From the IMG/VR virus record IMGVR_UViG_3300045988_183322: a stretch of 64,000 nt of DNA, one strand, 5' to 3'. This stretch comes from a virus. The notes under the pieces are model-generated. The model saw nothing but the letters and a program-made list of their open reading frames with translations, did not search any database and was not told the origin of the DNA. Of the stretch, positions 1 through 48,685 are shown piece after piece. Both the position numbers and the translations under genes were made by a program. Within the stretch, counting starts at the first letter, position 1. Every line of letters begins with the position of its first letter.

Positions 1-243
1 GTCATTGATACATCATATACAGGGGAAATTTTGTGTAGATTCAGATATAATTATTCTCCGAAAGATTTTAAAATATTCAATGATAGATTCTATTTCATGA
101 TTGATGAAGATAAAATTTATCATGCGGGAGATAAAATTGCTCAACTTGTCTTCATAGAGAAAACAAATGTTGATTTTAAGCTAGTTGATGAATTATCTTT
201 GACTTCTCGAAATGATGGAGGATTTGGCTCTACTGGAAAATAA
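1..243 (+). CDS. dut: dUTPase, 5'-truncated at window edge (frame is open from base 1)
   Basis: Conserved dUTPase motifs: IDTSYTGEI (motif 3), KIAQL (motif 4), RNDGGFGSTGK (motif 5). Confidence 0.75.
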   Translation, partial: VIDTSYTGEILCRFRYNYSPKDFKIFNDRFYFMIDEDKIYHAGDKIAQLVFIEKTNVDFKLVDELSLTSRNDGGFGSTGK

Positions 244-277
244 TTTATGAAAGGTCTTAAATACCTAAGTTAAGTAT

Positions 278-862
278 ATGAAACCCAAAGGCATTTTACT
301 TATATCTGGAAACGCTACTTCTGGAAAAGATACATTTTTTCGCGGATTAAGATTGATTTTTGGTAAATCTGTAGAACGTTTTGCCTTCGCAGATTCTTTA
401 AAAAACGACACAGATATCCTAGCGGAGCGTATTTTTAATAAAAAGATAATTTTATTATCAAAAGAAGAAAAAGAGATATTTAGGCCAATTCTTGTCGATT
501 ATGGTAATATTATGAGGAAAGTTAATCCTCTGCATTGGGTTAAAGAAGTAAATAAGTCAATACAATTAAGTAATGATGATTTTGATTATGTTGTTATTAC
601 TGATTGCCGATATGAAAATGAATTAGTTTTTTTTCAGGAAAACTACTCTTGCCCCGTTAAATTGTTGTATCTTGAACGATATGATTGCTTGGGAAATACT
701 ATTCCACCAGCAAATGAAATAGAAAAAGAAAATAACATTAAATTAAAAACTATAGCCGACTTCTTTTTCTCTTGGATTACTATTGGGGAAAATAATGAAA
801 TTATGAAAACTTTAGTAAAAGATTATGTCAAGTTCAATATGCAAAACTTTTTTAAGCCATAA
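278..862 (+). CDS. P-loop kinase resembling phage deoxynucleoside monophosphate kinase (T4 gp1-like)
   Basis: N-terminal ILLISGNATSGKDTF P-loop plus FADSLKN and VVITDCRYENE blocks mirror T4 dNMP kinase LIFLSGVKRSGKDTT / LAGPIKDA / YIVPDTRQDHE. Confidence 0.5.
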   Translation: MKPKGILLISGNATSGKDTFFRGLRLIFGKSVERFAFADSLKNDTDILAERIFNKKIILLSKEEKEIFRPILVDYGNIMRKVNPLHWVKEVNKSIQLSNDDFDYVVITDCRYENELVFFQENYSCPVKLLYLERYDCLGNTIPPANEIEKENNIKLKTIADFFFSWITIGENNEIMKTLVKDYVKFNMQNFFKP

Positions 863-1475
863 AGAAATAAATTCGCTTGTTCTCAAACTCAAAAATGAGT
901 TTGATGAAAAAAAATTTAATATTATTGTAGAAAATACAAAAAGAATTTATTTTAAGAGAATAGAATCTTACTTTAGATGCAAAAATTTTCTTTCAGAATT
1001 AGAAAAAGATAACCTGAAAGATGAGTATAAATCATTCATATATAACGCAATATATACATATGATTCTTCAAAAATGACCAGTTTTACAACTTATCTTCAT
1101 AATCTAACAAATTATACGCTATATACATTATATACTGTTGAGTTCAAAGAGGAAAGAAAAAAAAACGCAGAATGGTCTATTGCCTATGAAGGAAAAATAA
1201 ATGATGGGGATAATTTGTTAAATCAACTCTATAAAAAAGAAGAGTATTTCTTTGTCAAAGAAATTTTGAAAAACTGTTTAGATAAGTTTCATGACAAAAG
1301 AATAAAAAAAATACTTGACATACGATTTAATACATACGAGCATAAAAACGCTCCTTGGAAGGAAGTGTCTGAGAAAATTGGTTGTTCTAAACAATACTGT
1401 CATTTCCTCTTAGAGCAATTTTTTAATCGGCTAAGAATTGAACTTAAAAAATATTCATATGTCAGCACTAAATAA
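825..1475 (+). CDS. sigma-70 family sigma-factor-like protein (possible phage transcription factor)
   Basis: MTSFTTYLHNLTNYTLY resembles sigma region 2 (FSTYA...). C-terminal KRIKKILDIRF...WKEVSEKIGCSKQYCHFLLEQFFNRLR resembles the region-4 HTH. Overlaps the upstream ORF by 38 nt. Confidence 0.4.
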   Translation: MSSSICKTFLSHKEINSLVLKLKNEFDEKKFNIIVENTKRIYFKRIESYFRCKNFLSELEKDNLKDEYKSFIYNAIYTYDSSKMTSFTTYLHNLTNYTLYTLYTVEFKEERKKNAEWSIAYEGKINDGDNLLNQLYKKEEYFFVKEILKNCLDKFHDKRIKKILDIRFNTYEHKNAPWKEVSEKIGCSKQYCHFLLEQFFNRLRIELKKYSYVSTK

Positions 1476-1956
1476 CGTATCTATTCAAGGTAGACTTTCC
1501 TGTGACCCTGAACTTCGCTATACGCAAAATGGAAAAGCGTATTGTTCTATCTCAATATTTCTTGAAAACTCATACCCAACAAAAGATAATACTGGCGGAT
1601 TCATCGATGTCATTTCTTTTGAACAAAAAGCAGAGTTTCTTGCAAAATATTTTTCTAAAGGAGATGCTATTTTAATTTGTGGTAGCCTTAAGCATGATTC
1701 TTGGATAGATAAAGAAAGTAATAAATCCAGAAGCAAGTGGAGTATTGTTGCAAATAGCATCCATTTTTGTGGAAAGCGAATGACAGAACAAGATAATAGG
1801 GAAGATTCTAACCCACAAGAACAATCTAATAGAAAGCAGAATAATTATCAACAGCCTCAATATAAACAACAATCTCAACAATATTCTTATAAGAGAAAAG
1901 AAGAAAACCCTCCAGCTTGGGATGATAATAGATTTGATGACGAAATTCCGTTTTAA
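1459..1956 (+). CDS. ssb: single-stranded DNA-binding protein
   Basis: OB-fold N-terminus MSALNNVSIQGRLSCDPELRYTQNG, Q/N/Y-rich linker and acidic C-terminal tail DDEIPF typical of SSB. ORF track starts at 1438; the MSALNN start at 1459 looks more SSB-like. Confidence 0.85.
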   Translation: MSALNNVSIQGRLSCDPELRYTQNGKAYCSISIFLENSYPTKDNTGGFIDVISFEQKAEFLAKYFSKGDAILICGSLKHDSWIDKESNKSRSKWSIVANSIHFCGKRMTEQDNREDSNPQEQSNRKQNNYQQPQYKQQSQQYSYKRKEENPPAWDDNRFDDEIPF

Positions 1957-1986
1957 AATGTAATAAATGGACGCAGAGAGAAATCT

Positions 1987-2331
1987 TTGCGTCTTTTTAA
2001 TTCTAGCAAAATGAAGCATTTAGATATAATTGAAAAAAAAGAAAATAAACTTCAGTTTTTTTCTACAGGAGAAATAAGATATATTGGTCAAATTTTAAGT
2101 CATAATTCCGACCATAATGGATATGAATATACAAAAATCTGGATGGGTGACTTAGAGAAAGAGAAAATAAATGTAAAAGTTTCAGAGAATGGATTGATAT
2201 TTATTAAGTTCAATGTAGAAGATTCTGATTTATTGAAGAATATAGAAGTAAAACATGAAAAATGTTCTTTAGATAAATCCGAAGCTGTTTTATATGCTGG
2301 CGTTTTGACTATATTAACTAAATTTAAGTGA
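1987..2331 (+). CDS. hypothetical protein
   Basis: ORF in co-oriented early/replication block; no recognisable motif. Confidence 0.35.
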   Translation: MRLFNSSKMKHLDIIEKKENKLQFFSTGEIRYIGQILSHNSDHNGYEYTKIWMGDLEKEKINVKVSENGLIFIKFNVEDSDLLKNIEVKHEKCSLDKSEAVLYAGVLTILTKFK

Positions 2332-2681
2332 TGCCAAATTATCTTTTTCGCAAAGAAGATGGGAGTATTATAGAACTTTTTTTTTCAATGAAAGAAGCTC
2401 CAAGAATAGGAGAAAGAATAATTCTTGATGATTTCACAAAGGCTATTAGATTAGCTTCTATACCTTCATTCAAACAAGGTCTCCCCAATGATATTTATGA
2501 TATTGATAAACTAGCTCAATTTTCTACCCCTCATGAGACAATAGGAGATACTATGGAAAGAAGCAGGGAACTTTCTCATAAAAGAGCAGAAGAAAATGGT
2601 GGTATCGACCCAATAAAAAGAAAGTTTTTTGATAATTATTCAAAAGAAAGAAAAGGGAAGAAACATCCTAAAGATGTTTAA
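2328..2681 (+). CDS. hypothetical protein
   Basis: ORF with ATGA start/stop overlap with the previous gene. Confidence 0.35.
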   Translation: MMPNYLFRKEDGSIIELFFSMKEAPRIGERIILDDFTKAIRLASIPSFKQGLPNDIYDIDKLAQFSTPHETIGDTMERSRELSHKRAEENGGIDPIKRKFFDNYSKERKGKKHPKDV

Positions 2682-2710
2682 TGATTTACTTCTTTCTAAG
2701 AAGTAATCGG

Positions 2711-2733
2711 AGTTAAGTATATAGGACCCATAA
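2711..2733. repeat. degenerate copy (20/23) of the 23-26-bp cassette repeat, direct orientation
   Basis: agttaagtatataggacccataa vs acttaagtatataggttccataa at 7548-7570; contains its own gtatat...atatac mini-palindrome. Confidence 0.5.
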
Positions 2734-2750
2734 TATACCTGTAAAGCACC

Positions 2751-2912
2751 ATGAATACAAATAACATAATGTTAAGTACAGATGAAGAAATTCGTCCCGA
2801 AGGGAAAGAAGCATTAAATCGTCTTTATAAAAATAATAAAAATCTTTCTCTGGATGATAAGATAAATATGGAACCTATATACTTAAGTAGCCTTGTCGGT
2901 AAAAGACAGTAG
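2751..2912 (+). CDS. small ORF (53 aa) flanked by inverted repeat copies; coding status uncertain
   Basis: ATG at 2751; MNTNNIMLSTDEEIRPEGKEALNRLYKNNKNLSLDDKINMEPIYLSSLVGKRQ; below the ORF-track cutoff. Confidence 0.2.
   Translation: MNTNNIMLSTDEEIRPEGKEALNRLYKNNKNLSLDDKINMEPIYLSSLVGKRQ
2867..2892. repeat. left copy of perfect 26-bp inverted repeat (tatggaacctatatacttaagtagcc)
   Basis: Exact reverse complement of 7546-7571 (ggctacttaagtatataggttccata). Confidence 0.75.
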
Positions 2913-2925
2913 AATAGAGCAATGA

Positions 2926-3861
2926 TTATTTTTTCGTTTCTTCTTCCGTAGAATTTTCTAACAGTCTAATTTGAGAATACTCAATTATCTCTGGAAGATA
3001 AGGCAATGCTTTTTTGTCTTTTTTATCAAAATAACTTATCATCTTTTCCGGAATCCAGACTGTATAAAAATGTTTTCTAAAGTCCGCTAAAAGTCTATTA
3101 GGATAAAGCTTGGCCCGTACAACTCTTCCGTCCTCATAGCGATGATTATAAGTAGGAAAATCATTAGGCTCTTCACCATTTTGACGTAGCCAACGACAAA
3201 ACATTTTGCCTTGAGAAATATCGGGTACAAGATTTTCAGGAAGCTCATAACCTTTGTCTTCTAAGGGAGCAATCAAATTGAATGTAAGTTCGTTCAGTAT
3301 AGAGAAATGCGTCGGAGGTATTTCAGAACGGTTAGCTAAATAACGCCTCAAATGGTAAGGTAATTCTGCTTTTCCTTTTATACTTCCTGTCATCCATTCA
3401 CGAACCCATCTTGAAACTGCAACGGCGAATTTCGGAGAACACCATTGAGCTAGATGAATTGCTACGTCAGGATGAACCCATGTACCTTGTTGCCACTTGT
3501 TTCCTGCCTGTTTTTGAATGATAAGGGTCGTTACGGGAATTCCCGTAACGATAACCAACTCGTTAAGAAACTCTTTTGTATATTTAAGCCTAGAATAGTC
3601 ATTAAACTTTTTCCCTACGGCCTGACACATTGCGGTAGCATTAACGTATCCATCTGCCATTCTTTGGGGAATCAAGTCACCGTCTACTTCATGGGGGATA
3701 ATACGTAAATCGAGTAGGCTTTGGCCGTTTTCTTCCTGTAGTATTTTTCTTGTACGACCAATTTGTTCTTTTTCAGAACTTACAGAATCAGTAATCTTTT
3801 TTGTTACGTCATCAAAACTCGCCTCAATAGGCTGAATCTCTTCCTTATTTTTACGTGCCAT
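2926..3861 (-). CDS. KilA-N domain protein (Bro/KilA-like)
   Basis: N-terminal block DGYVNATAMCQAVGKKFNDYSRLKYTKEFLNEL...GTWVHPDVAIHLAQWCSPKFAVAVSRWVREW is a typical KilA-N/APSES DNA-binding domain; about 40% GC. Confidence 0.7.
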   Translation of the reverse strand: MARKNKEEIQPIEASFDDVTKKITDSVSSEKEQIGRTRKILQEENGQSLLDLRIIPHEVDGDLIPQRMADGYVNATAMCQAVGKKFNDYSRLKYTKEFLNELVIVTGIPVTTLIIQKQAGNKWQQGTWVHPDVAIHLAQWCSPKFAVAVSRWVREWMTGSIKGKAELPYHLRRYLANRSEIPPTHFSILNELTFNLIAPLEDKGYELPENLVPDISQGKMFCRWLRQNGEEPNDFPTYNHRYEDGRVVRAKLYPNRLLADFRKHFYTVWIPEKMISYFDKKDKKALPYLPEIIEYSQIRLLENSTEEETKK

Positions 3862-4870
3862 AATTTATTAATCGGTCAATTCTTTATAGGAAATATGCTT
3901 TCCATACATCATTTCGAAGGTTCTGTCAATGAAATTCATTGTTTCCCAAGACGCTGTATTATGTCTGAAAGCGAATTCTTGAATGTAGCGTTCAAGATGC
4001 TTGGAACTCATAAAATGATAAATGCCGTAATATCCTCGCTTTAGTAAAGCCCAAAAGCTTTCTATGCCGTTAGTATAGGCTTTCTGGTTAACATATTCAC
4101 CTACGGAATGGTTTACGGATAAATGATTGTATTTGTTTAAGCCTCGATAGGATTTGAAATCATCAGTATAGACGGTGGCCCCTACTACAACGTTATCTTC
4201 AATGAAACCATGAAGAGTTTTGGCAGTTACGTCCGGGGCATGCTTAACAACAACTTCTCCATTTCGTTGTTTGATACCAATAACAACCGCTTTCCCAACA
4301 CTGCCCCTGCCTTGCCTAAGTTTCTTCTTAGAATGCTTGTTGCTTTCCTTACCGCCAATGAAAGTTTCATCTACTTCCACTTCTCCATCAAGCTTATCGG
4401 AATCAGAAGATTCCTCGGTTTGTTTATTTAGCCATGCCTCCCTGATTCTCTGTGCCAAAAACCATGCTGATTTTTGCGTGATGCCAAGTTCTTTTGCCAT
4501 TTGAGTAGAAGGAATACCTTTCCGAGAGGAAGTCATCATGTAAATAGCGAGAAGCCATTTCTTAAGAGGAAGCCGCGATTCTTCTAAAACTGTTCCAGTT
4601 CTAACAGAGAAATGTTTTCGGCATTCTTTGCATCTATAAGGCATCGGCTTATGATTTTTGCATTCGGAAACTTTATGGCTTCCACAATGAGGACAGACAA
4701 TTGAGCCATTCCATCTTTTCTTTTCCAAGTAAAGACGGGCGGCTTCTTCATCTGGAAACTTCTGAAAGAAATCGTAGATGCTGACTATCTTCATGATGTT
4801 TACCTCCTTGTTTATCCAAAGAATAGCATAATATCATGGGTAGTCAAGTATTTTTTGGCTAGTTAAGTTC
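3862..4870 (-). mobile_element. IS1595-family (ISXO2-like) insertion sequence; termini not resolved
   Basis: Single transposase ORF. A partial copy of the cassette repeat (ggctagttaagt, 4857-4868) lies in its upstream region. The KilA-N ATG is only 6 nt after the transposase stop, so the right end is ambiguous. Confidence 0.5.
3868..4794 (-). CDS. IS1595-family transposase (ISXO2-like, DDE with N-terminal zinc ribbon)
   Basis: CPHCGSHKV...YRCKECRKHFSVRTGTVLEESRLPLKKWLLAIYMMTSSRKGIPSTQMAKELGITQKSAWFLAQRIREA is the hallmark ISXO2/IS1595 N-terminus; the downstream DDE region is conserved. Confidence 0.85.
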   Translation of the reverse strand: MKIVSIYDFFQKFPDEEAARLYLEKKRWNGSIVCPHCGSHKVSECKNHKPMPYRCKECRKHFSVRTGTVLEESRLPLKKWLLAIYMMTSSRKGIPSTQMAKELGITQKSAWFLAQRIREAWLNKQTEESSDSDKLDGEVEVDETFIGGKESNKHSKKKLRQGRGSVGKAVVIGIKQRNGEVVVKHAPDVTAKTLHGFIEDNVVVGATVYTDDFKSYRGLNKYNHLSVNHSVGEYVNQKAYTNGIESFWALLKRGYYGIYHFMSSKHLERYIQEFAFRHNTASWETMNFIDRTFEMMYGKHISYKELTD

Positions 4871-4908
4871 TCAATGTATTTCTTCATCTAAAGTAAGATA
4901 AAGAAAGG

Positions 4909-5841
4909 TTATTTTCCTTGACGTAATTTTCTGACTTCATTGACCTTCTGTTTGCTGAGAGGCCGACTTTCCAAAGAGAGATTAGCCATGAAGCCTTCCC
5001 AATAGTGGGTAAACTCTCTTGTATATCGGAAATCCACCCTTTTTGCCTCGTTCTTAAGTGTCGCTTCCCCCTTGAAGCAGTTAATATTCTTTTTGTCATT
5101 CACGACTTTCAGAGGGGTATCAGGAAGCAACATTTTCGTAATTACCAAAGCTTCTTCCTTGCTAATGCAAAACTCTTTTACTCCCTTGCGAATCTCAAGT
5201 CTGAAGCAAATATTCGATTTCGGAGTGAACAGGGCTTCTACCTTAAAAAATTCCCAGTCATCATTGCCCCAATGAAGCTTTGTAAGTCCTTCCTCTGTCT
5301 TGGATTTTTTCCCTCCCGGAAATTGAGCTTCTATTTTTTCGAGAGTCTCGCCTAATAGAGGAGAAGCCGGGAGTTTGATATCTTTTTCCGTGATGGTTTT
5401 CCCTATTTGCTGGGTTTTCAATAGAAGGTCATTATCTTTGACGGTAACTTTTTTCTCTTTTACAGAATAGTAGGTCTCAATGAACTTCGATTGATTTCTA
5501 GAACGCCCCTTGAACCCGTCGTCTTTCAATGAATATTGGAATTTGAAATCACCAGCAATATGCTCCTTTAGTAGATTCAAAGCTCCCGCTCTATTAGAAC
5601 AGTTGAAGAACTCCATTTTGAAGCATTTGTTCTGGAAGGTGAAATAGGCCTTTAGTTCCACTCCTTCCTTTTTCCATGTGAGGGTTTTGAAATCATGAGT
5701 GCCTCCGGCTTTTCCTTCCTTCCCTTCTCCCCACTTCTCATTCATTTTCTCAGGGGAATCTCCCAAATCGGCCTTAGCAGAAGGAAAAGCTGATAACAAA
5801 AGAGTTATCAAAATTGCGATATGATATGTTATTTTTTTCAT
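4909..5841 (-). CDS. secreted protein of unknown function (signal peptide, no lipobox Cys)
   Basis: N-terminus MKKITYHIAILITLLLSAFPSAKA reads as a signal peptide; Lys-rich mature part; about 40% GC. Confidence 0.5.
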   Translation of the reverse strand: MKKITYHIAILITLLLSAFPSAKADLGDSPEKMNEKWGEGKEGKAGGTHDFKTLTWKKEGVELKAYFTFQNKCFKMEFFNCSNRAGALNLLKEHIAGDFKFQYSLKDDGFKGRSRNQSKFIETYYSVKEKKVTVKDNDLLLKTQQIGKTITEKDIKLPASPLLGETLEKIEAQFPGGKKSKTEEGLTKLHWGNDDWEFFKVEALFTPKSNICFRLEIRKGVKEFCISKEEALVITKMLLPDTPLKVVNDKKNINCFKGEATLKNEAKRVDFRYTREFTHYWEGFMANLSLESRPLSKQKVNEVRKLRQGK

Positions 5842-5926
5842 GCGTATAGCGGAGTTGTTTCTTTCGAATAAAAAACGCCCCTTCTTCCAAAATCAGAAAA
5901 AGGGACGTTCAGTCATGCTTTGAGAA

Positions 5927-6565
5927 TTAAAAATCCCAGCTAAATCCTGCCTCAATGGCATGCCATACAAGAGCATTTGAACCCGCAATCATACACTCGT
6001 ACCCTAGCACGAATTTTACATGTTCGCTGATTGCAAAATTGAATCCTGCATTAGCAGTAAACATTCCCACAATCTGGCTTACCTTCGCTCCTTTGGTCAA
6101 ATTAAAGCTTCCCCGGCTCTCTATACTCGTAAAGGCTATGCCTCCTTTCACGCCAAGATAGAAAGAAGCGGCGTCAGACATGGGAAGGTAGAGAGTATAT
6201 CCACCCAAAACAGGAATCAGTTTTCTCTTCTGATGAAGGGTTCCATAGTAGGTAGCTTCAAAATTATCACTCCCTGTCATATAACCTGACATTAATGAAA
6301 ATTGATGAATAACAGATTCAGTAGCTACGTTTTGATGAATGTCCAAGAGAGCACCCGCTAAGTTCGGTTGGTACAATTCAGAAGTCCAAGCATAAACCCC
6401 TTTTACTCCTATACCAAAACCGGATTGTTCGTAAGCTTGACTGTAAGACCTCGATTTCTTCTGAGAACTACCAGCCCAATAGTATTCCCAAGGATTATCA
6501 TAAGCGTGTGCGGTACATGAGAGGCCCAGAAGCCCCAAACTGGCTATGATGGTTTTCGTGTTCAT
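5927..6565 (-). CDS. small outer-membrane beta-barrel protein (Lom/Ail/OmpX-like moron)
   Basis: Signal peptide MNTKTIIASLGLLGLSCTAHA, alternating amphipathic strands, C-terminal GFSWDF with terminal Phe typical of OMP barrels; 212 aa; about 42% GC. Confidence 0.6.
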   Translation of the reverse strand: MNTKTIIASLGLLGLSCTAHAYDNPWEYYWAGSSQKKSRSYSQAYEQSGFGIGVKGVYAWTSELYQPNLAGALLDIHQNVATESVIHQFSLMSGYMTGSDNFEATYYGTLHQKRKLIPVLGGYTLYLPMSDAASFYLGVKGGIAFTSIESRGSFNLTKGAKVSQIVGMFTANAGFNFAISEHVKFVLGYECMIAGSNALVWHAIEAGFSWDF

Positions 6566-6720
6566 GATGTTTTTAGGTCAATATGTTCTCTGAATACGGC
6601 CTCACAATAGAAGAATCCATATCTTCATTGAAGGCTAATGTCATTCATTGTGGTTAAATTAGACATTCATTGAGCGATTGTCAATCATGCTATGCTCAAA
6701 ATCTTTGATTCATCATCACA

Positions 6721-7095
6721 ATGAGCAAAGTTCCTTACATGGAAGAACCTCTTGTGAATATTTTAGAGTTAGGACGTTGGATGACGGAAAATCAGATAAG
6801 CCGAGCAACATTGGCTTCGGCTATTGGCATGAACAGAAGTGCCATTGATAACTATTTTGTCCGTAAAAAGCTTCCTAGGCACGCTCAAATCCTCATTAAA
6901 AGATTCATGGACGGTCAGGAAGCCGTCTTTGCCTCAAATGAGATAACTTCCCTCATTACTATCCCTCTTAGCAACCGAGTAATTAATCTTGCCATGAAAG
7001 CCGCCGTTGAAAAAAACGTCACGATGGAAGAGTTTGTGGGGTGGGCTGTTGAAAGGACGGCAAAGAAAATTGTGGAGGGAAGCGGGTGTAATTAG
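6721..7095 (+). CDS. two-domain transcriptional regulator: N-terminal HTH plus C-terminal ribbon-helix-helix (Arc/CopG-like)
   Basis: HTH LASAIGMNRSAIDNYF. RHH fold ITIPLSNRVINLAMKAAVEKNVTMEEFVGWAVERTAKKI (beta strand plus two helices). Paralog of 51807-52271. Confidence 0.55.
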   Translation: MSKVPYMEEPLVNILELGRWMTENQISRATLASAIGMNRSAIDNYFVRKKLPRHAQILIKRFMDGQEAVFASNEITSLITIPLSNRVINLAMKAAVEKNVTMEEFVGWAVERTAKKIVEGSGCN

Positions 7096-7175
7096 AAAGA
7101 AAGGGGGGCTAATTTCTATGTCTGCAGTTAAGCTTTTTAGATTGAATCACTCTAAAAGCTAGTATAGAAGAACGC

Positions 7176-7451
7176 ATGACTATTACTGCGGCGTTTATGC
7201 AAAAACAAGGGATAAATTTCGTAGTTATCCCTGTTAAATATAGGGCGATGGATACTCCTGAAAAAGCAAAAAGAACTATTGAGGGATTTCGTTCAGCGAT
7301 AGCAAATTTTTCAGAGCTTCCTCTGATTTTAGCCACTCAGAATTCACATGGAGACTCTGTATATTGGGGAGAACCGCGCGTGGTAAGGATGCTTCGGAAC
7401 ATGTCTGTTTCTGAATTTTCTTGGAAGGAGTACAAACTCGAACGTAGATAA
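7176..7451 (+). CDS. hypothetical protein
   Basis: ORF only. Confidence 0.25.
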   Translation: MTITAAFMQKQGINFVVIPVKYRAMDTPEKAKRTIEGFRSAIANFSELPLILATQNSHGDSVYWGEPRVVRMLRNMSVSEFSWKEYKLERR

Positions 7452-7545
7452 AATCATCTTCTTTACATTCAACCATAGCAATTCCCAAATCTTTATCTCC
7501 ATCTATATTACACCAAAAGGTGCATAAGCATATCTCATGATGCGC

Positions 7546-7571
7546 GGCTACTTAAGTATATAGGTTCCATA
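7546..7571. repeat. right copy of perfect 26-bp inverted repeat; itself part of a 10-bp-stem hairpin (7551-7582)
   Basis: ggctacttaagtatataggttccata; cttaagtatat...atatacttaa flanks the aggttccataa loop. Confidence 0.75.
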
Positions 7572-7742
7572 AATATACTTAAAGAACGTCTTTATTCTGA
7601 CTTTACTTATTGTTTCTTTGATGGAGATGCGTCATTAACACCTGATAAAGCGAAAGAGAGAATTGTCGCAAATTTAGAATTTGATTATTTAGTTAAAGAA
7701 GGATTGGCAGCAGTTGTAGAATTATAATAAGATGCCTTTAGT

Positions 7743-8237
7743 ATGCAATCTATCATGTCCAATAATGCGTATAGAACTTATGTTGAAGTTATGAAGGACG
7801 CACCAAAGAATGCGTATTTTTATAATGATTCTACAGACGATGCAAAAATTGTTTTAGCTCAATTCATCAATGCGGCCACATTTTCTGTTCGTATTTTTGC
7901 TCGAAGCTTGAACCATGAAATTTATGCTGATAAGGGTGTATTTTTAGCTATTAAACGCGCTCTCAAAAAAGGCGTCCGTTTTACAGTAATGATTCAGGCT
8001 GAACAAGCAGATGCATTAAGTTCTAAGCTCATTAATTTATTTTGTAAGTTTAAGGACTCGGTTGATTATCAAACAAAAAAGGGAGTAGGTTTATCCGCTA
8101 ATGTTTGTACTGTCGATGACAGAATGTTTCGATATGAGTATGCTCCTGATAAACGCAAAGCTAAAGCTTCTTGGAATGATAGAGATACAGTAAAGAAACT
8201 CAATCTTGCCTTGGATAATATTAAGCAAGCTATTTAA
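7743..8237 (+). CDS. hypothetical protein
   Basis: 164-aa ORF, no recognised motif. Confidence 0.4.
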   Translation: MQSIMSNNAYRTYVEVMKDAPKNAYFYNDSTDDAKIVLAQFINAATFSVRIFARSLNHEIYADKGVFLAIKRALKKGVRFTVMIQAEQADALSSKLINLFCKFKDSVDYQTKKGVGLSANVCTVDDRMFRYEYAPDKRKAKASWNDRDTVKKLNLALDNIKQAI

Positions 8238-8294
8238 TATCATAAATAACCCGGATTCTTCCATTCATCATCCTGATAGGAGAAAATTGCCCGC

Positions 8295-8498
8295 ATGGAC
8301 GAGAAACGCCCGCTGGATATTCAGACTTTGGGAAGGTGGTTAGAAGAGAACAAAGTGTCTCGCACCGAACTCGCTTTACCATCGGAAGCAATCATTTTCA
8401 ACTGTACGATTTTTTCGTACAGTTGACTAAACCCTTCTTCATGATAAAGAATTTTCTTATTGATAAGAACTCTCTTGGCATTCTTCTCCACTAGGTGG
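8295..8498 (+). pseudogene. frameshifted remnant of an HTH-domain regulator gene (paralog of the 6721 N-terminus), GC-rich
   Basis: ATG 8295 gives MDEKRPLDIQTLGRWLEENKVSRTELAL, matching EPLVNILELGRWMTENQISRATLAS of 6721-7095. After a -1 shift near 8380 the frame continues IGSNHFQLYDFFVQLTKPFFMIKNFLID, matching AIGMNRSAIDNYFVRKKLPRHAQILIKRFMD. 8290-8400 is about 55% GC vs 30% for the genome. Confidence 0.45.
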
Positions 8499-10739
8499 TT
8501 CACTTCCCTTATAAACTAATTTCCATTCATCAATAGCTTCTTCATCAGAAGAAAACTTTTTATATCCTAATTGAGATGCATTTTTTGAATCACAAAAAAT
8601 TTCATCTGCTCTTAAAATTTGCCACCTTCTCCCATATTCGTCTTCGTATTCTCCCCCATCATATTCTTGTTTTTTGAACCAAGACGGTTTTTCTTCTTTT
8701 AAGATTGCCCTTTTTGCTCTCGAAGAATTTTTAAAAGGATTATATGGAGTCATCCATGTCATATTAACTTGCCACCCTCTTCCCGTGGCTTGTTGTATTG
8801 CTTCTAACACACTTTGATTCTCTTTATAAGTATTTTCCATGCCCAACGTAAGAATCCATTTAGCGCTTGTCCCTAAAGATGTATCTTTTTGTTGTAGACT
8901 TTTGAGAATGCTTACAGCGGAAGGTAAATCAACTCGGCAATTGATGAATGCATTAGTTCCATCTATTAAATTTGGCAAAGTGAGATATTCATAAATACCA
9001 CTTCCGTCAGTATTTTTAGCTTGCGGTCTTCCGCTCACATATATGCAATTCCCATCTTCATCTATTGGGTATCTAAATGTTCTTATAAAAGCATATCCAA
9101 AAGCATTACTTGCATATTTTACAAGAGGAAAAGGAGAATTAAACTCTTTCATTTTTTCTGAATGAAAAAGGAAATTATTTATATTTGATATCTTAGTTGT
9201 ATTATGCTTAAATTCAGTAAAACCACATCTCTCTCCCATATAGCTTAAAGAGGTGATATTACTGAAATCCATATCTATTTTTTGAAGTTTAGCGCATATA
9301 TAAGCTAACGTTGATGCAGAAGTGGAATTATGCCTCTTAATAATTAATTTTTTAAGAGATGTACAATTTCTAAATAAACTATTGATATTAGTACACTTCG
9401 GTAGGTCTACTATAGCTTCTTCAATCGAAGTACATGGATAAAACATTTCATTCGCTGTAGTACAATTTGGAAGATATAAACTAATTTTCTTTAAATTATT
9501 TGCGCCCCTAAACATTCTATTAGCATTCACTAATTTTGGGCATGAACTAACGAACTTTTCTAATGTATTTTCGCTTGGATATGTTAGATAATCAAATAAA
9601 GAAGTTCCATTTTCTAAATTATCAAGTTCCCAATCCCAAACTCCATTTTGTAAATCTGTTCTATAACTTTCATTAATATTTAGAATTTCACTTCTATTTT
9701 TAGCTGGAATATATTTTTCATATCTTTTTCTTGTGGTAATCCCCTTGCGAATATCACTAATTGTTTCTGTTGGTACTACAACATTAAAACTGTAAGATAT
9801 ATTCATAAGTCCATCAACATTTTCTTCAATACTAACACTATTTAATGTCGTATTATAAAAATTTATAGATGTTCGTATTGGAGCATTATTTTTAGATGGT
9901 TCATCATGTATTATTCGGAAGTCCTTCAATAAAGATTTTGCATTTCTTAAATATTCCGTAGTAAAATCTTTGCTTTTTAAATCACTTACGGTATTAATAG
10001 TTAAAGTACAATTCGATGAACTTTCTGCTTTATTAATTTTTGGGGCCAAAAAATTATTTGTACTATTTGGAATGTCTATTTTTCTTGAAAAAGTATATTT
10101 TATTTTTCTATCGATATTTAAGTCAATTGAAAAAGAAGATACTGGTTGATTAAATAATCCATCAGAGCTATATAAATTAAGTTTATAAGCTAATCCAATA
10201 TTTTTAGGCACTAAGCTTAAATTATTTTCAGCATCTTCTTTAATTTCTATTCTTTTCCCTTCAATATTACTTCCTGAAAATCCTAAATTATGATTTATTA
10301 AACCTCCAGCCTCAATAGAAAGAGAATAAGAATTAATGTAGCAATTATCAATTTTTAATCCGTATACATCATGTTTTTCTCCCATAGAAGCCATTTCGAC
10401 TGCTCTGATTAAATCATCATAATCATTTGTATCATTTAATAAAATAAAAATATTTATTGGAGAATTAATATCATTGAAAATTTGACGTTCTATCTCATTT
10501 GGAGAATTAAAAAAATATAATTCTTCATTTATTATATTATCTTTACCTAAAATTTCGATGGAAGTTTCGACCGTGGGGGCAGTCAGTACCTCTTGCCTTT
10601 TTTCGTAAGTACCAGATTGACTGATGGTTGATACATTCGTACTTACATTCACATCCAAAGATTGAACTAATGGAACATAATATTGTATTCCATCGTTCCC
10701 CCAAGCTACTAATATATCATCTCTTCTCGTAAATTTCAT
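8457..10739 (-). CDS. tail fibre / receptor-binding protein with BspA-type leucine-rich repeats
   Basis: Last gene of the tail operon. Repeated ...ANNLKKISLYLPNCTTANEMFYPCTSIEEAIVDLPKCTNINSLFRNCTSLKKLII... units are typical of the BspA-like LRR family. Confidence 0.55.
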   Translation of the reverse strand: MKFTRRDDILVAWGNDGIQYYVPLVQSLDVNVSTNVSTISQSGTYEKRQEVLTAPTVETSIEILGKDNIINEELYFFNSPNEIERQIFNDINSPINIFILLNDTNDYDDLIRAVEMASMGEKHDVYGLKIDNCYINSYSLSIEAGGLINHNLGFSGSNIEGKRIEIKEDAENNLSLVPKNIGLAYKLNLYSSDGLFNQPVSSFSIDLNIDRKIKYTFSRKIDIPNSTNNFLAPKINKAESSSNCTLTINTVSDLKSKDFTTEYLRNAKSLLKDFRIIHDEPSKNNAPIRTSINFYNTTLNSVSIEENVDGLMNISYSFNVVVPTETISDIRKGITTRKRYEKYIPAKNRSEILNINESYRTDLQNGVWDWELDNLENGTSLFDYLTYPSENTLEKFVSSCPKLVNANRMFRGANNLKKISLYLPNCTTANEMFYPCTSIEEAIVDLPKCTNINSLFRNCTSLKKLIIKRHNSTSASTLAYICAKLQKIDMDFSNITSLSYMGERCGFTEFKHNTTKISNINNFLFHSEKMKEFNSPFPLVKYASNAFGYAFIRTFRYPIDEDGNCIYVSGRPQAKNTDGSGIYEYLTLPNLIDGTNAFINCRVDLPSAVSILKSLQQKDTSLGTSAKWILTLGMENTYKENQSVLEAIQQATGRGWQVNMTWMTPYNPFKNSSRAKRAILKEEKPSWFKKQEYDGGEYEDEYGRRWQILRADEIFCDSKNASQLGYKKFSSDEEAIDEWKLVYKGSEPPSGEECQESSYQ

Positions 10740-11698
10740 TATTTATAATTTCTTGGAGCGTGGTTTTGATTAATTGATATATTTAAGGAATGATAATCAC
10801 CAACATTCCATACATGAGTCCATTTTTGAGTATTCCACCAATATGAATCATTTTCTATTTGTGGAATTCTAAAATTTTTATATCCGTATTGATGTTCCAA
10901 AAAATGAAGGCAACAAAGAAGCTGTTTCTTCTCTAAAGAAGGGATGTTTACAGATACATCTTGAAAATCGTATGTTTGTTCTCCTTTCCATGCTCGGACA
11001 GGATAGGATTCTTTGAAATCATTAATGTAATAATCAGGCGATAATTGTCTTTCAAATGGGGTGATGACTTCCAAAGGAAGAACATACTTTTTTCCTTCTG
11101 CTTTAGCCGCATCTACTATATCTCCATTATATTTTTCTATCAAATCTGTATCAATTACTTCATCAAGCATATAATAAAATACTTTATCTGAATAAACTAT
11201 ATCATATTTTTCAAGATTATTTTTTGTTCCATTATCATTTTCATCAAAAGTGCGCACATTTATAAAAAATGAATCTCTCCATTTTGTTATAGTTGAAGCA
11301 GTATCAGTGACTAAAGCTAATGATAAATTTATTCTCCCATTTTCTGCATTAGTTATTGTTAAATTATCTATGTATAAAAGCATTTCTTTCAGAATCCCAC
11401 TTGGGTCGATATAAGAAGATGGGGTCATCACCGTATTAACTTGATTCATTTTAAGATTGTGAATCATATTATCTGCCTCATCTTCTGATAAATCAAAAGT
11501 TAAATTAGCATTTATTCTAGTAGAGTTTACCCCTTGAGCTGAAATTTGATATGATTTATCAAAAATATTTGACGAGAATACCCCACAGAACCAATTAAAC
11601 TCTGCTTGGACAGGAACTAGTCTATAATTATAATCTTTTGATACTAAAAATCCTACTTTATTATCTTTATTATCGATTGGATTTAATGGGGTTGTCAT
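10739..11698 (-). CDS. tail tip / tail-associated protein (Tal-like position)
   Basis: Position between the distal tail protein and the RBP; ATGA overlaps at both ends. Confidence 0.35.
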   Translation of the reverse strand: MTTPLNPIDNKDNKVGFLVSKDYNYRLVPVQAEFNWFCGVFSSNIFDKSYQISAQGVNSTRINANLTFDLSEDEADNMIHNLKMNQVNTVMTPSSYIDPSGILKEMLLYIDNLTITNAENGRINLSLALVTDTASTITKWRDSFFINVRTFDENDNGTKNNLEKYDIVYSDKVFYYMLDEVIDTDLIEKYNGDIVDAAKAEGKKYVLPLEVITPFERQLSPDYYINDFKESYPVRAWKGEQTYDFQDVSVNIPSLEKKQLLCCLHFLEHQYGYKNFRIPQIENDSYWWNTQKWTHVWNVGDYHSLNISINQNHAPRNYK

Positions 11699-12564
11699 TA
11701 TACTATAGTTTTACTTCCTAAAAAATCTATTCCAAATAGTAAATAATCTGAATCAGAAATACTCGTGCTCAAACTATTTAATTTAGAATTCTTCAAAAAA
11801 TAGTCATTATTTTCATCAAATTTTTCTGATTGTATTCTCACTCCTAAAATTTCATTCCGCTGATTTAAATACTTTTCAATTAAATCTATATTTCCTCTAA
11901 ATGGGAAATCTGAAAGAGAAGAAGTATATCCAGATGCCGAAAATTGTTGATTTATTAGTGGAGATTCAAGAACAATCATTTTGTCTTTCCAATTTATCGG
12001 CCATCTTATAAGAACATTTTTCCTTTCAGAAAAATTCATAGTAAAAATTGCTTCATCATCAAATATATCTAAGTATGGGATTATCCTATCCATCTTAGGT
12101 ATTTCCTTCTCTTCTGTTTCCGAGTTTCTTTTAAGAATTGCCGTCCATTTCTCTGGGGCATAAACCTTTTTTCCCACGAATGATGCTGATAATAATGGAA
12201 TTTCTCCCGGGTTCAATGATAAAGAATACTCAGTCATTACTACATCAAAATTAGCCCCATTCACATTCATTAGTGTTTCGCCTTGGATTAAATCATCAAA
12301 AGATGCTTCTACTAATGCGGCGGTATGTTGACCTATGAAATAATCCAGCAATTTTTCATTGAATGTTAATGGTTTTTCTATAGAAAAGCTTATAGTTGGC
12401 GCCCCATTTGGAATAGTTTGTGATAATCCTCCTAATAAAGCACCTGTTGAATTAGAAAAGTCATTAGTCATCGATATGACATTAACATCTTTCCAAAAAT
12501 CGGAAATTTCCCCATTTTCTTCCCCAATGCAAAATATTATATTATTGATATTTAACGCATTCAT
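11698..12564 (-). CDS. distal tail protein (Dit-like position)
   Basis: Immediately downstream of the tape measure with start/stop overlap; size 288 aa. Confidence 0.4.
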   Translation of the reverse strand: MNALNINNIIFCIGEENGEISDFWKDVNVISMTNDFSNSTGALLGGLSQTIPNGAPTISFSIEKPLTFNEKLLDYFIGQHTAALVEASFDDLIQGETLMNVNGANFDVVMTEYSLSLNPGEIPLLSASFVGKKVYAPEKWTAILKRNSETEEKEIPKMDRIIPYLDIFDDEAIFTMNFSERKNVLIRWPINWKDKMIVLESPLINQQFSASGYTSSLSDFPFRGNIDLIEKYLNQRNEILGVRIQSEKFDENNDYFLKNSKLNSLSTSISDSDYLLFGIDFLGSKTIV

Positions 12565-41175: not shown

Positions 41176-41194
41176 AATTTAAGAATCCATAACA

Positions 41195-47494: not shown

Positions 47495-48319
<825 letters not shown>

Positions 48320-48639: not shown

Positions 48640-48685
48640 ATAATAGAAATGGGTCTTATATACTTAACTTAGAAACAACTTGAAA

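What the first reader, a model, noticed from the sequence alone, without database searches (positions are those of the whole stretch)
2711..7582. About 4.7-kb higher-GC moron cassette bracketed by a perfect 26-bp inverted repeat, with two further related copies
tatggaacctatatacttaagtagcc (2867-2892) is the exact reverse complement of 7546-7571. A 20/23 copy sits at 2711-2733 and a 12/13 partial copy (ggctagttaagt) at 4857-4868 in the transposase promoter region. The enclosed DNA is about 40% GC versus about 30% outside and carries non-phage-like cargo: a KilA-N protein, an IS1595 transposase, a signal-peptide protein, a Lom/Ail-like OMP and an HTH+RHH regulator. The right copy is part of a 10-bp-stem hairpin. 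The repeats could be terminal IRs of a composite transposable unit or MITE-like element, or operators/recombination sites for the cassette regulator.
Basis: seen in the sequence. Interest (0 to 1): 0.65.

Follow-up and report, generated by a model that had tools for sequence, protein, structure and literature searches.

The report
Akkermansia defence transposon inside a phage
The "cassette" is a 4.7-kb jumping gene from the gut bacterium Akkermansia muciniphila, carrying an anti-phage gene, that recently hopped into a phage genome; this is an ordinary kind of element, but it ties an uncharacterised phage to its host.

Summary
Window 2870-7568 (4,699 bp) is one IS1595-family transposon. It has perfect 23-bp terminal inverted repeats (GGAACCTATATACTTAAGTAGCC) and an 8-bp target-site duplication (ATAAATAT).

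At least 12 closely related phage genomes (98.8-99.8% identical) lack exactly this segment. They carry one ATAAATAT and an intact 89-aa gene.

The same element, up to 100.000% identical over all 4,699 bp, sits at nine other sites in Akkermansia muciniphila chromosomes, each with its own AT-rich 8-bp duplication.

It is not composite, not a MITE, and the repeats are not operators. The partial copy at 4857-4868 is a disabled ancestral end: the conserved 2-kb core is transposase plus a BstA-like abortive-infection gene, and the regulator/porin/secreted-protein arm lies beyond it. The copy at 2711-2733 is not part of the element; it is a fixed phage sequence, one of three that resemble this IS clade's ends, and is unexplained.

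About a quarter of assemblies of this phage carry the insertion, and some have lost one end.

By-products: a covarying dyad inside KilA-N genes, and a leader-tagged second gene across this IS clade.

Verdict: new member of a known kind, moderate interest.

The parts
2862..2869 (.). Left copy of the 8-bp target-site duplication, ATAAATAT
   Evidence: The sequence is present once in the empty-site phages and twice here, directly abutting both IR termini.
2870..2892 (.). Terminal inverted repeat next to the bstA-like gene (GGAACCTATATACTTAAGTAGCC; 23 bp, perfect)
   Evidence: The same perfect end is found in 10 other loci.
2926..3861 (-). BstA-like abortive-infection gene (311 aa): clade-specific N-terminal leader, KilA-N domain, BstA_C domain. 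It starts 6 nt after the transposase stop codon.
   Evidence: KilA-N 4.7e-26. phrog_6287 BstA 1e-59. PADLOC BstA 6.1e-19. PF26567 BstA_C on record. 30% identity over 134 aa to BTP1 BstA, E 5e-11. Identical to WP_186268851.1 of A. muciniphila.
3528..3551 (.). 24-nt perfect palindrome TCGTTACGGGAATTCCCGTAACGA inside the KilA-N coding region, centred on the G-I-P codons
   Evidence: It is the longest perfect palindrome in the window. A dyad is conserved, with compensatory changes, at the same codons in 11 KilA-N genes.
3868..4794 (-). IS1595-family DDE transposase (308 aa) with an N-terminal zinc ribbon
   Evidence: PF12762 2e-43 and PF12760 4.3e-11. The exact protein is listed in 330 assembly blocks.
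4820..4847 (-). Sigma-70-like transposase promoter (TTGACT, 16-nt spacer, TATTCT, TG-extended)
   Evidence: Consensus scan. The -35 CTTGAC aligns with the same motif just inside the left IR of distant relatives. This is consensus evidence only.
4857..4879 (.). Disabled ancestral inner IR. The inner 13 bp (GGCTAGTTAAGTT, i.e. AACTTAACTAGCC on the transposase strand) are kept; the terminal 10 bp are replaced.
   Evidence: It aligns with the left IR plus promoter of relatives, which lies at the same distance from the transposase ATG. The module shared by all Akkermansia variants ends at 4878.
4909..5841 (-). Secreted 310-aa protein of unknown function (Sec-type signal peptide)
   Evidence: No family or solved relative. 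It is 29% identical, in two stretches, to the 181-aa protein of variant B.
5873..5910 (-). Terminator-like hairpin after the OMP gene (17 pairs followed by a T run)
   Evidence: consensus scan only.
5927..6565 (-). Small outer-membrane beta-barrel protein (212 aa)
   Evidence: PF13505 6.2e-7, 30.2 bits against a cut-off of 28.7. It is 41-43% identical to the OMP of variants B and C.
6721..7095 (+). Small putative DNA-binding regulator (124 aa), divergently oriented from the OMP gene
   Evidence: Weak HTH hit, phrog_2967 5.9e-4. It is 31-33% identical to the 116-aa counterpart that occupies the same position in the other variants.
7176..7451 (+). 91-aa protein of unknown function
   Evidence: phrog_23950 7.9e-14. 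Annotated as a hypothetical protein in A. muciniphila genomes.
7546..7568 (.). Terminal inverted repeat at the cargo-arm end (GGCTACTTAAGTATATAGGTTCC)
7569..7576 (.). Right copy of the 8-bp target-site duplication, ATAAATAT
2751..2869 (+). 5' part of the phage gene split by the insertion. Here it is fused to 13 IR-encoded codons, giving the 53-aa ORF 2751-2912.
   Evidence: The gene is an intact 89-aa ORF in empty-site phages. The chimeric 53-aa ORF is listed in 39 assembly blocks.
7577..7727 (+). 3' part of the split 89-aa phage gene
   Evidence: It is contiguous with 2751-2869 in the empty-site genomes.
2711..2729 (+). NOT part of the transposon. A phage-resident sequence resembling an IS end (AGTTAAGTATATAGGACCC), 22 nt upstream of the split gene's ATG. 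Sister copies lie at 268-286 (+) and 48651-48669 (-).
   Evidence: It is identical in 10 phage genomes, including the empty-site ones. The exact 12-mer is over-represented. It matches the IS-clade IR consensus at 17/17 specified positions.

Best explanation
Window 2870-7568 is a single 4,699-bp IS1595-family unit transposon resident in Akkermansia muciniphila. It transposed recently from the host chromosome into the genome of an uncharacterised, roughly 73-kb, low-GC tailed phage during infection.

Mechanism. Its zinc-ribbon/DDE transposase (3868-4794) recognises the two perfect 23-bp terminal inverted repeats. It inserts the element into an A/T-only octamer through a staggered 8-bp cut, leaving the duplication ATAAATAT and splitting a dispensable 89-aa phage gene.

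Structure: an old core plus an added arm.
- The core (2870-4879) is an ancestral 2-kb IS made of the transposase and, 6 nt downstream, a BstA-like abortive-infection gene.
- The core's original left end survives only as a disabled 13-bp remnant at 4857-4879, beside the transposase promoter.
- Transposition now uses a replacement end 2.7 kb further out. That mobilises an arm encoding a small regulator, an outer-membrane beta-barrel protein, a secreted protein and a 91-aa protein.

What is shown: the boundaries, IRs, duplication and empty site; multiple independent insertions; identity to chromosomal copies; the host; the family assignments; and the homology of the inner remnant to the relatives' left end.

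What is inferred: the chemistry of transposition (from family membership), the direction host to phage, and any benefit to the phage.
For: Empty site and duplication.
- Related phage contigs align to window 1-2869 (99.6%) and 7569-12000 (98.8%) and skip 2870-7568.
- They overlap by 8 bp, which is the single ATAAATAT.
- Nine further empty-site genomes carry an intact 89-aa ORF, and a twelfth comes from JGI data.

Ends. The terminal IRs are 23 bp and perfect.

Transposase. DDE_Tnp_IS1595 2e-43 plus Zn_ribbon_IS1595 4.3e-11.

Mobility.
- Nine bacterial contexts have the same perfect ends and nine different AT-rich 8-bp duplications.
- Across 18 sites of the clade, the duplication has no G or C at positions 2-3 and 6-7.

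Recency and source.
- The phage copy is 100.000% identical over 4,699 bp to chromosomal copies L009 and L015.
- The cargo proteins are annotated in complete A. muciniphila genomes.
- A 98%-identical transposase is found in an Akkermansia sp. genome.

Polarity. Empty-site phages differ from one another by 0.2-1.2%, whereas filled ones are at least 99.87% identical to the window.

Core plus arm.
- Only window 2870-4878 is shared (99.5%) among the three size variants.
- The remnant at 4857-4879 aligns with the left IR and -35 of relatives at the same distance from the ATG.
- The arm genes are homologous between variants but only 29-43% identical.

Viability. The filled junction is listed in 39 assembly blocks from independent samples and assemblers.
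Against: - No experiment shows transposition, and IS1595-family chemistry is itself poorly characterised.
- One chromosomal copy (L011) has an imperfect duplication.
- The host-to-phage direction and the host assignment of a 33%-GC phage to a roughly 55%-GC bacterium rest only on the shared transposon.
- The one Akkermansia CRISPR array examined has no spacer against the phage.
- The element is 39.6% GC, foreign in composition to both partners.
- Nothing shows that the cargo is expressed or useful in the phage.
Confidence: 0.95

Rival explanations
1. The segment is a classical phage moron or accessory island acquired by illegitimate or homologous recombination. The repeats would then be operators or recombination sites for the cassette's own regulator.
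For: The segment is absent from relatives, has a higher GC content, and contains a small divergently oriented regulator.
Against: The repeats are terminal and inverted, and are flanked by an 8-bp duplication of a sequence present once in empty sites. The same unit with the same ends lies at nine unrelated chromosomal sites with different duplications. Variants B, C and D have a regulator only 31-33% identical yet the same ends. No integrase or recombinase is present.
Confidence: 0.02
2. The segment is a composite transposon (two IS copies bracketing cargo), or a MITE-like non-autonomous element mobilised in trans.
For: An internal IR-like sequence (4857-4879) divides the element into an IS-like part and a cargo part. 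That is what a decayed composite might look like.
Against: There is one transposase gene, no second IS copy, and only 23-30 bp are shared at the outer cargo end. The inner IR lacks its terminal 10 bp in every Akkermansia variant. At 4.7 kb and with its own transposase, the element is not a MITE. A composite origin in the distant past is not excluded.
Confidence: 0.03
3. The insertion is ancestral in this phage lineage, and the 'empty sites' are precise-excision revertants.
For: Precise excision between 8-bp duplications flanking inverted repeats is known to occur by replication slippage (established knowledge). Selection for the 89-aa gene or for genome size could favour revertants.
Against: Empty-site genomes are more numerous (about 165 against 39 assembly blocks) and far more diverse (98.8-99.8% identity) than filled ones (at least 99.87%). 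The phage copy is still 100% identical to chromosomal copies. The deletion derivatives observed are imprecise.
Confidence: 0.04
4. The junctions are an assembly artefact: a repeated chromosomal element wrongly joined into phage contigs.
For: The element is multi-copy in the metagenomes, and repeats do cause chimeric contigs.
Against: Both junctions carry a clean target-site duplication. The same junction recurs in at least 24 contigs from different samples and assemblers, with phage sequence on both sides. Derivatives with secondary deletions exist.
Confidence: 0.01

Closest known systems
IS1595-family insertion sequences that carry passenger genes ('transporter IS'; the extended groups listed by ISfinder and described by Siguier et al. 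2009). The subgroup names and that paper are recalled from memory and were not checked here.
   Same: The transposase has the IS1595 DDE domain and an N-terminal zinc ribbon. The element has short terminal IRs that start with GG, an 8-bp target duplication, and extra genes inside the IRs.
   Different: The element appears to be unnamed: sources call the protein only 'transposase-like protein'. Its core includes a fixed second gene that abuts, or in relatives overlaps, the transposase gene and has a clade-specific leader. An inner end has been disabled and replaced by one 2.7 kb further out. One copy sits in a phage genome. No paper in the searchable library links IS1595 with KilA-N (0 papers) or describes defence cargo (no relevant title).
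BstA/aba prophage abortive-infection system (Owen et al. 2021, PMC8585504)
   Same: It has the BstA_C domain and an N-terminal KilA-N-type DNA-binding domain. Homologs 56-61% identical sit directly after cI in lambdoid Proteus and Escherichia phages, the canonical BstA position.
   Different: Here the gene is carried by a transposon, not a prophage. The protein has an extra N-terminal leader (45 positions in the alignment) that the phage homologs lack. Its N-domain is the PF04383 type, whereas BTP1 BstA matches only in the C-domain. No aba element has been identified and no phenotype tested.
Phage morons (extra transcription units that close relatives lack; recalled from memory as the Hendrix/Juhala concept)
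   Same: It is extra DNA of deviating GC between conserved phage genes, absent from close relatives, with its own promoter-like and terminator-like signals.
   Different: The acquisition mechanism is explicit DDE transposition, with IRs and a target duplication. The insertion interrupts a gene instead of lying between genes.
IS-driven mobilisation of adjacent DNA through a substitute distal end (for example ISEcp1-type units; recalled from memory)
   Same: One transposase moves a longer unit because the end next to its gene is not used and a more distant end is.
   Different: Here the distal end is a perfect copy of the IR, not a weak surrogate. The proximal end has been physically truncated. 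The arrangement is stable across variants whose arms have diverged to 29-43% identity.

Membership tests
IS1595 family transposable element | DDE transposase with the IS1595/ISXO2-like catalytic domain | tested here: met
   PF12762 E 2e-43, 148.5 bits against a cut-off of 27, full-length profile match.
IS1595 family transposable element | N-terminal zinc-ribbon DNA-binding domain | tested here: met
   PF12760 E 4.3e-11, residues 14-61.
IS1595 family transposable element | Terminal inverted repeats | tested here: met
   23 bp, perfect, at 2870-2892 / 7546-7568. The ends are identical in 10 other loci. Relatives show the consensus GGGnnCTATATACTTAACTAGCC.
IS1595 family transposable element | 8-bp target-site duplication | tested here: met
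   ATAAATAT here. 16 of 18 clade insertions have a perfect 8-bp duplication, each different and AT-rich; L011 is imperfect and L025 has one mismatch.
IS1595 family transposable element | Evidence of mobility: the same element at different loci, and an empty site | tested here: met
   Nine chromosomal contexts plus the phage. At least 12 empty-site phage genomes.
IS1595 family transposable element | Transposase-dependent transposition demonstrated | not testable with these tools
   This needs a mating-out or papillation assay.
Composite (compound) transposon | Two complete IS copies flanking the cargo | tested here: not met
   There is a single transposase ORF. Apart from the two 23-bp terminal IRs, only a 13-bp internal IR remnant is present.
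MITE | Small non-autonomous element without a transposase gene | tested here: not met
   The element is 4,699 bp and carries an intact 308-aa transposase gene.
BstA abortive-infection proteins | C-terminal BstA domain | tested here: met
   PADLOC BstA 6.1e-19, residues 167-284. PF26567 on record. blastp to BTP1 BstA E 5e-11, 30% over 134 aa. phrog_6287 1e-59.
BstA abortive-infection proteins | N-terminal KilA-N(-like) DNA-binding domain | tested here: met
   PF04383 4.7e-26. It is a different subtype from BTP1's N-domain, which did not align.
BstA abortive-infection proteins | Encoded by a prophage, typically next to the repressor gene | tested here: not met
   Here the gene lies inside a transposon directly after the transposase gene. 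Homologs 56-61% identical do lie after cI in lambdoid phages.
BstA abortive-infection proteins | Cognate aba self-immunity DNA element within the locus | tested here: inconclusive
   No similarity to the BTP1 aba was seen. The 181 nt around the gene start (80 nt upstream, 101 nt into the gene) were printed and read by eye only, with no systematic direct-repeat search. A conserved dyad inside the gene is a candidate only, and BTP1 bstA lacks such a dyad.
BstA abortive-infection proteins | Abortive-infection phenotype / block of phage DNA replication | not testable with these tools
   This needs expression in Akkermansia or a surrogate host and a phage challenge.
Ail/Lom family outer-membrane proteins | Match to the Ail/Lom family itself, not just to the generic small beta-barrel model | tested here: not met
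   Only PF13505 OMP_b-brl was hit (6.2e-7, 30.2 bits against a cut-off of 28.7). There was no Ail_Lom hit at E <= 0.01.
Phage moron | An autonomous extra transcription unit that close relatives lack | tested here: met
   It is absent from at least 12 relatives. Promoter-like and terminator-like signals are present but not above chance. The label describes the outcome, not the mechanism.

The most novel reading that the evidence does not exclude
This IS1595 clade may be a self-mobilising anti-phage unit. The transposase is coupled to a second gene that has a clade-specific N-terminal leader and interchangeable phage-type bodies (KilA-N/BstA, RhuM or P63C).

The Akkermansia phage that captured the unit would thereby have acquired the cognate self-immunity determinant of the host's own BstA. 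The candidate for that determinant is the covarying dyad inside the KilA-N coding sequence. The phage would then escape abortive infection in transposon-bearing hosts.

This would explain why about a quarter of assemblies of the phage carry the element, and why some lineages have fixed it by losing one end. It would be a natural counterpart of the engineered P22-bstA immunity of Owen et al. 2021.
Probability: 0.15. Interest if true: 0.75.

Novelty: new member of a known kind. Interest (0 to 1): 0.5.

Why it matters
1. Host link. A transposon copy identical over 4.7 kb gives a hard physical link between an uncharacterised, roughly 73-kb, 33%-GC gut phage and Akkermansia muciniphila. The searchable literature turned up no described phages for this health-relevant bacterium.

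2. Rare event in progress. IS insertions in phage genomes are uncommon (from memory). Here empty, filled and secondarily truncated states coexist in public metagenomes.

3. Testable counter-defence. The cargo is a BstA-type abortive-infection gene. Experiments on the canonical system showed that a phage given a bstA locus becomes immune to that BstA (PMC8585504). This natural case therefore offers a direct test of defence capture as counter-defence.

4. Two by-products for follow-up. One is a conserved covarying dyad embedded in KilA-N coding sequences across unrelated phages. The other is an IS clade whose second gene swaps KilA-N/BstA, RhuM and P63C bodies behind one leader peptide. I could not find either in the literature. 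Either may bear on how BstA-type proteins recognise self from non-self DNA.

Tried and rejected
Near-identity and exact-match searches
- Megablast of window 1-12000 against GenBank phages and of 2700-7600 against plasmids found no match.
- An exact scan for the 26-mer in IMG/VR found no match, although IMG/VR does hold empty-site relatives.

CRISPR host evidence
- The 30 spacers of the Akkermansia type I-C array next to the element in L006 gave only 11-12-nt chance hits to the phage.

The IR as a genome-wide phage repeat
- Rejected. The 19-20-mers occur only at the two ends and at 2713.

The 'hairpin' or IR-like flank as a target requirement
- Rejected. There is no flank consensus across 18 sites.

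The phage IS-end-like motif as a pervasive promoter
- Not supported. Only three strong copies occur in about 69 kb of phage sequence.

A phage protein descended from the transposase DNA-binding domain that might bind those motifs
- None was found by tblastn; all hits were chance-level (E >= 3).

The dyad as a BstA-specific (aba) feature
- Weakened. BTP1 bstA lacks it, and KilA-N genes without BstA_C have it.

Other negative results
- Solved-structure relatives of the BstA-like, secreted and regulator proteins: none.
- Rfam families and tRNAs in the window: none.
- Promoter and terminator consensus counts in the element are not above shuffled expectation.
- Literature searches linking IS1595 with KilA-N, defence cargo or Akkermansia found nothing relevant.

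Not done
- A deep homology search for the leader peptide. 20-25 conserved residues are too few for a database of that size.

Full report
1. THE OBSERVATION

The inverted repeat is real. The repeat finder reports arms at 2862-2892 and 7546-7576 (31 nt, 94% complementary), with a perfect 26-nt core. The 19-20-nt cores occur only at these two places, plus a 2-mismatch copy at 2713. The expectation from shuffles is 0.02-0.03.

The enclosed DNA is 39.6% GC against 32.9% for the rest of the window, and 28-31% in the immediate flanks.

- a KilA-N protein (4.7e-26);
- an IS1595 transposase (DDE domain 2e-43, zinc ribbon 4.3e-11);
- a 310-aa secreted protein with no family;
- a small outer-membrane beta-barrel protein (PF13505, just above its cut-off);
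- a weakly HTH-like 124-aa protein;
- a 91-aa protein.

2. WHAT IT IS

No near-identical genome is in GenBank phages or plasmids. Proteins flanking the segment found IMG/VR contigs that are 97-99% identical at the protein level.

Empty site.
- blastn of window 1-12000 against those contigs gives two blocks: 1-2869 (99.6%) and 7569-12000 (98.8%).
- The blocks abut in the relative and overlap by 8 bp.
- Base by base, the relative reads ...GATAAG ATAAATAT ACTTAAAG....
- The window reads ...GATAAG ATAAATAT [4,699 bp] ATAAATAT ACTTAAAG....

So the insert is 2870-7568. It ends in perfect 23-bp inverted repeats (GGAACCTATATACTTAAGTAGCC) and is flanked by an 8-bp target-site duplication.

The insertion splits a phage gene. 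That gene is an intact 89-aa ORF in nine further empty-site genomes from independent samples and in a JGI contig.

3. WHERE IT CAME FROM

The exact transposase protein is listed in 330 assembly blocks. Ten contexts were fetched.
- One is the same phage from another sample.
- Nine are bacterial chromosome contexts at 49-54% GC. Each has the same perfect 23-bp ends and its own AT-rich 8-bp duplication; L011's duplication is imperfect.

The phage copy is 100.000% identical over all 4,699 bp to chromosomal copies L009 and L015.

The host is Akkermansia muciniphila.
- A 98%-identical transposase lies in an Akkermansia sp. genome. The next-nearest relatives are only 44-66% identical, mostly Alphaproteobacteria.
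- The exact BstA-like protein is WP_186268851.1 of A. muciniphila, seen on 788 contigs including complete 2.8-Mb genomes.
- The OMP, secreted protein, regulator and 91-aa protein are all annotated in A. muciniphila.

Direction and age.
- Empty-site phages differ from each other by 0.2-1.2%.
- Filled ones are at least 99.87% identical to the window.
- The filled state is therefore a recent, derived event in one sub-lineage, and the direction was host to phage.

4. ANATOMY: AN OLD CORE AND AN ADDED ARM

Akkermansia holds size variants of 4,699, 3,849 and 3,282 bp and a fourth, more divergent one (L016). Only window 2870-4878 (2,009 bp) is shared at 99.5%: one end, the BstA-like gene, the transposase gene and its upstream region. 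The other end shares only about 30 bp.

The distant relatives are complete 2.0-3.4-kb elements with their own 8-bp duplications. Aligning the transposase upstream regions of those relatives shows:
- their left IR (GGGnnCTATATACTTAACTAGCC) lies 80-100 bp before the ATG and is followed by AAAAAnnnCTTGAC;
- the window has AACTTAACTAGCC-AAAAAATACTTGAC at the same place, but the terminal 10 bp are replaced.

So 4857-4879 is a disabled ancestral end beside the transposase promoter (TTGACT-16-TATTCT). The present unit uses a replacement end 2.7 kb further out.

The arm between the two has the same architecture in every variant: regulator on one strand, OMP on the other, and optionally a secreted protein. 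The variants are only 29-43% identical at the protein level. The arm is therefore an old, diversifying module and not a random capture. Its function is unknown, and I found no family or solved relative for the secreted protein or the regulator.

5. THE KilA-N GENE IS A BstA-TYPE DEFENCE GENE

It hits phrog_6287, 'BstA abortive infection system', at 1e-59 and the PADLOC BstA model at 6.1e-19. PF26567 BstA_C is on record for it. It aligns to BTP1 BstA over the C-domain only (30% over 134 aa, E 5e-11).

Full-length homologs at 56-61% identity lie directly after cI in lambdoid Proteus and Escherichia phages, the canonical BstA location.

Owen et al. 2021 showed three things (PMC8585504):
- BstA blocks replication of infecting phages.
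- Moving a bstA locus into phage P22 makes that phage immune to that BstA.

A phage that captures this transposon could therefore gain immunity to transposon-bearing hosts. This is an inference. No aba was identified here.

6. POPULATION DATA

The 53-aa chimeric ORF exists only at the filled junction. It is listed in 39 assembly blocks, against 165 for the neighbouring phage gene. Roughly a quarter of assemblies of this phage therefore carry the element, always at this site.

Derivatives exist.
- In L057, L058 and L060, window 6579-8238 is replaced by 92 bp. That region holds the regulator, the 91-aa gene, the right IR, the rest of the split gene and a 164-aa phage gene. One IR is left, so the element is immobilised there.
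- L061 carries a further rearrangement with a different 313-aa IS1595 transposase.

The transposon-bearing phage is thus viable, spreading and evolving.

7. THE 'THIRD COPY' AT 2711-2733

It lies outside the element and is identical in every phage genome examined, filled or empty. It is not a product of this insertion.

The exact 12-mer AGTTAAGTATAT occurs three times in the phage proper, at 268 (+), 2711 (+) and 48658 (-). Counting up to one mismatch there are six matches against 0.69 expected; two of these are the transposon ends, and one more is a one-mismatch site at 31544.

Position and orientation of the three copies:
- All lie in gaps between genes or at gene starts, and all are co-oriented with the downstream gene.
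- Two are 21-22 nt upstream of an ATG.

Read on the other strand they are GGGTCCTATATACTTAACT, GGGTTTCATATACTTAACT and GGGTCTTATATACTTAACT. These match the IS-clade IR consensus at 17, 15 and 16 of its 17 specified positions. That is a better fit than to the Akkermansia element's own ends. The exact 19-mer also occurs as a bona fide clade end in an unrelated high-GC contig.

Possible explanations:
- relics of earlier insertions;
- phage regulatory sites that happen to resemble the ends (the phage encodes one or two sigma-like proteins);
- sequences that attract the transposase.

By my estimate, about 3 x 280 bp of a roughly 73-kb genome lies within 140 bp of a copy, so a random insertion would land that close about 1% of the time. 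That figure is inflated if few sites tolerate an insertion. The chromosomal insertion sites have no such motif nearby, and no transposase-derived protein is detectable in the phage. I leave this unexplained.

8. TARGET CHOICE AND THE 'HAIRPIN'

Across 18 insertions of the clade, the 8-bp duplication never has G or C at positions 2-3 and 6-7. There is no flanking consensus. A 33%-GC phage is therefore a very permissive target.

9. BY-PRODUCTS

(a) A dyad inside KilA-N genes.
- The longest perfect palindrome in the window is TCGTTACGGGAATTCCCGTAACGA (3528-3551). It lies inside the KilA-N coding region, on the G-I-P codons.
- At the same codons, 11 KilA-N genes pair at 9-13 of 14 positions with different arm sequences. 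They come from Akkermansia, an alphaproteobacterial IS, Escherichia, Proteus, Planktothrix, Synechococcus, Nodularia and Bacteroides phages, and an environmental phage.
- PaV-LD differs from the window by two synonymous changes that are complementary to each other.
- Formal count: 91.7% of cells paired against 75.7% in shuffles (0/500) and 29-49% when slid. Seven of 12 pairs changed on both sides. The covariation score is 0.495 against 0.181.
- Synonymous-codon shuffles rarely regenerate the dyad.
- BTP1 bstA, which has the other N-domain type, lacks it. So do two KilA-N genes without G-I-P.
- I found no report of it.

(b) A leader-tagged second gene.
- In the distant IS relatives, the ORF directly after (often overlapping) the transposase gene is KilA-N/BstA-like, BTP1-type BstA-like, RhuM (1e-62 to 1e-101) or P63C (1e-20 to 1e-25).
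- All begin with the same leader of about 25 residues (...EIxPIDAxFDDV...).
- The leader is conserved as a peptide through synonymous changes.
- It is absent from the phage-borne homologs.

10. COMPARISON AND VERDICT

The element meets every sequence-testable criterion of an IS1595-family transposon with passenger genes. It fails the criteria for a composite transposon and for a MITE. It is 'moron-like' only in outcome.

It appears to be unnamed, and I found no description of IS1595 elements with BstA-type cargo or of this phage.

As a kind of thing it is known: a new member of a known kind. Three things lift it to moderate interest:
- the host link;
- the live polymorphism, with an experimentally testable defence-capture hypothesis;
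- the two by-products.

Noticed in passing
window 3528-3551; homologous codons in L014, L021, L045-L048, L064-L067: A dyad of 9-12-nt arms centred on the G-I-P codons of KilA-N genes is conserved with compensatory (partly synonymous) changes in 11 genes from very different phages and IS elements. 91.7% of cells are paired against 75.7% in shuffles, and 7 of 12 pairs changed on both sides. It is absent from BTP1 bstA and from KilA-N genes that lack G-I-P. I did not find it in the literature. Whether it acts as a DNA site or an mRNA hairpin is unknown.
   Followed up: yes
window 3787-3861 (first ~25 codons of the BstA-like gene); L016-L025 second genes: Across this IS1595 clade, the gene directly after (often overlapping) the transposase gene starts with the same ~25-residue leader (...EIxPIDAxFDDV...). 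The leader is fused to interchangeable bodies: KilA-N+BstA_C, BTP1-type BstA, RhuM or P63C. It is conserved at the peptide level and is missing from phage-borne homologs.
   Followed up: partly
window 268-286 (+), 2711-2729 (+), 48651-48669 (-): Three phage-resident sequences match the terminal-IR consensus of this IS clade (GGGnnCTATATACTTAACT) at 15-17 of 17 specified positions. All lie just upstream of, or overlapping, gene starts and are co-oriented with them. They could be relic solo ends, a phage regulatory motif, or transposase landing sites; this is unresolved.
   Followed up: partly
L057, L058, L060 (window 6579-8238 replaced by 92 bp); L061: Some transposon-bearing phage genomes have lost the regulator, the 91-aa gene, the right IR and the neighbouring 164-aa phage gene, which leaves the element immobilised. 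L061 has a further rearrangement involving a different 313-aa IS1595 transposase in the opposite orientation.
   Followed up: partly
L006 11926-13964: In one Akkermansia genome the transposon is inserted 4 bp from the terminal repeat of a 31-repeat type I-C CRISPR array, at the end distal to cas2. None of the 30 spacers matches this phage.
   Followed up: yes
window 40513-42711: The phage encodes a sulfotransferase-family protein, a PAPS-reductase/CysD-like protein and a CysN-like GTPase in a row. This is a possible sulfur-activation or sulfation module in a phage of a mucin-degrading host.
   Followed up: no
window 825-1475 and 38015-38725: Two phage proteins have weak sigma-factor similarity (phrog_351 1.8e-4; Sigma70_r2 3.9e-5, just below the cut-off), so the phage may use its own promoters. 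No integrase was seen among the ORFs examined, but lifestyle was not tested exhaustively.
   Followed up: no
window 48283-48310 (- strand), 5' end of ORF 47495-48319: An (AAGA)n run directly after the start codon varies between phage genomes: 7 units here and in L049, 4 in L050 and L051. The 12-nt difference is in frame and changes the length of a Lys/Glu-rich N-terminus.
   Followed up: partly
whole window vs L009-L015 flanks: The phage is about 33% GC, whereas its inferred host A. muciniphila contigs are 49-57% GC and the transposon is 39.6% GC. This is an unusually large gap between phage and host composition. The host assignment rests only on the shared transposon.
   Followed up: partly
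L002/L003 (IMGVR_UViG_3300045988_183135, 173 kb); L042, L050, L059 (141-143 kb contigs): Several contigs hold about two phage genome equivalents, and one has the region in both orientations, whereas many assemblies give contigs of about 73 kb. These are probably concatemer or assembly effects. The true genome ends were not determined.
   Followed up: no
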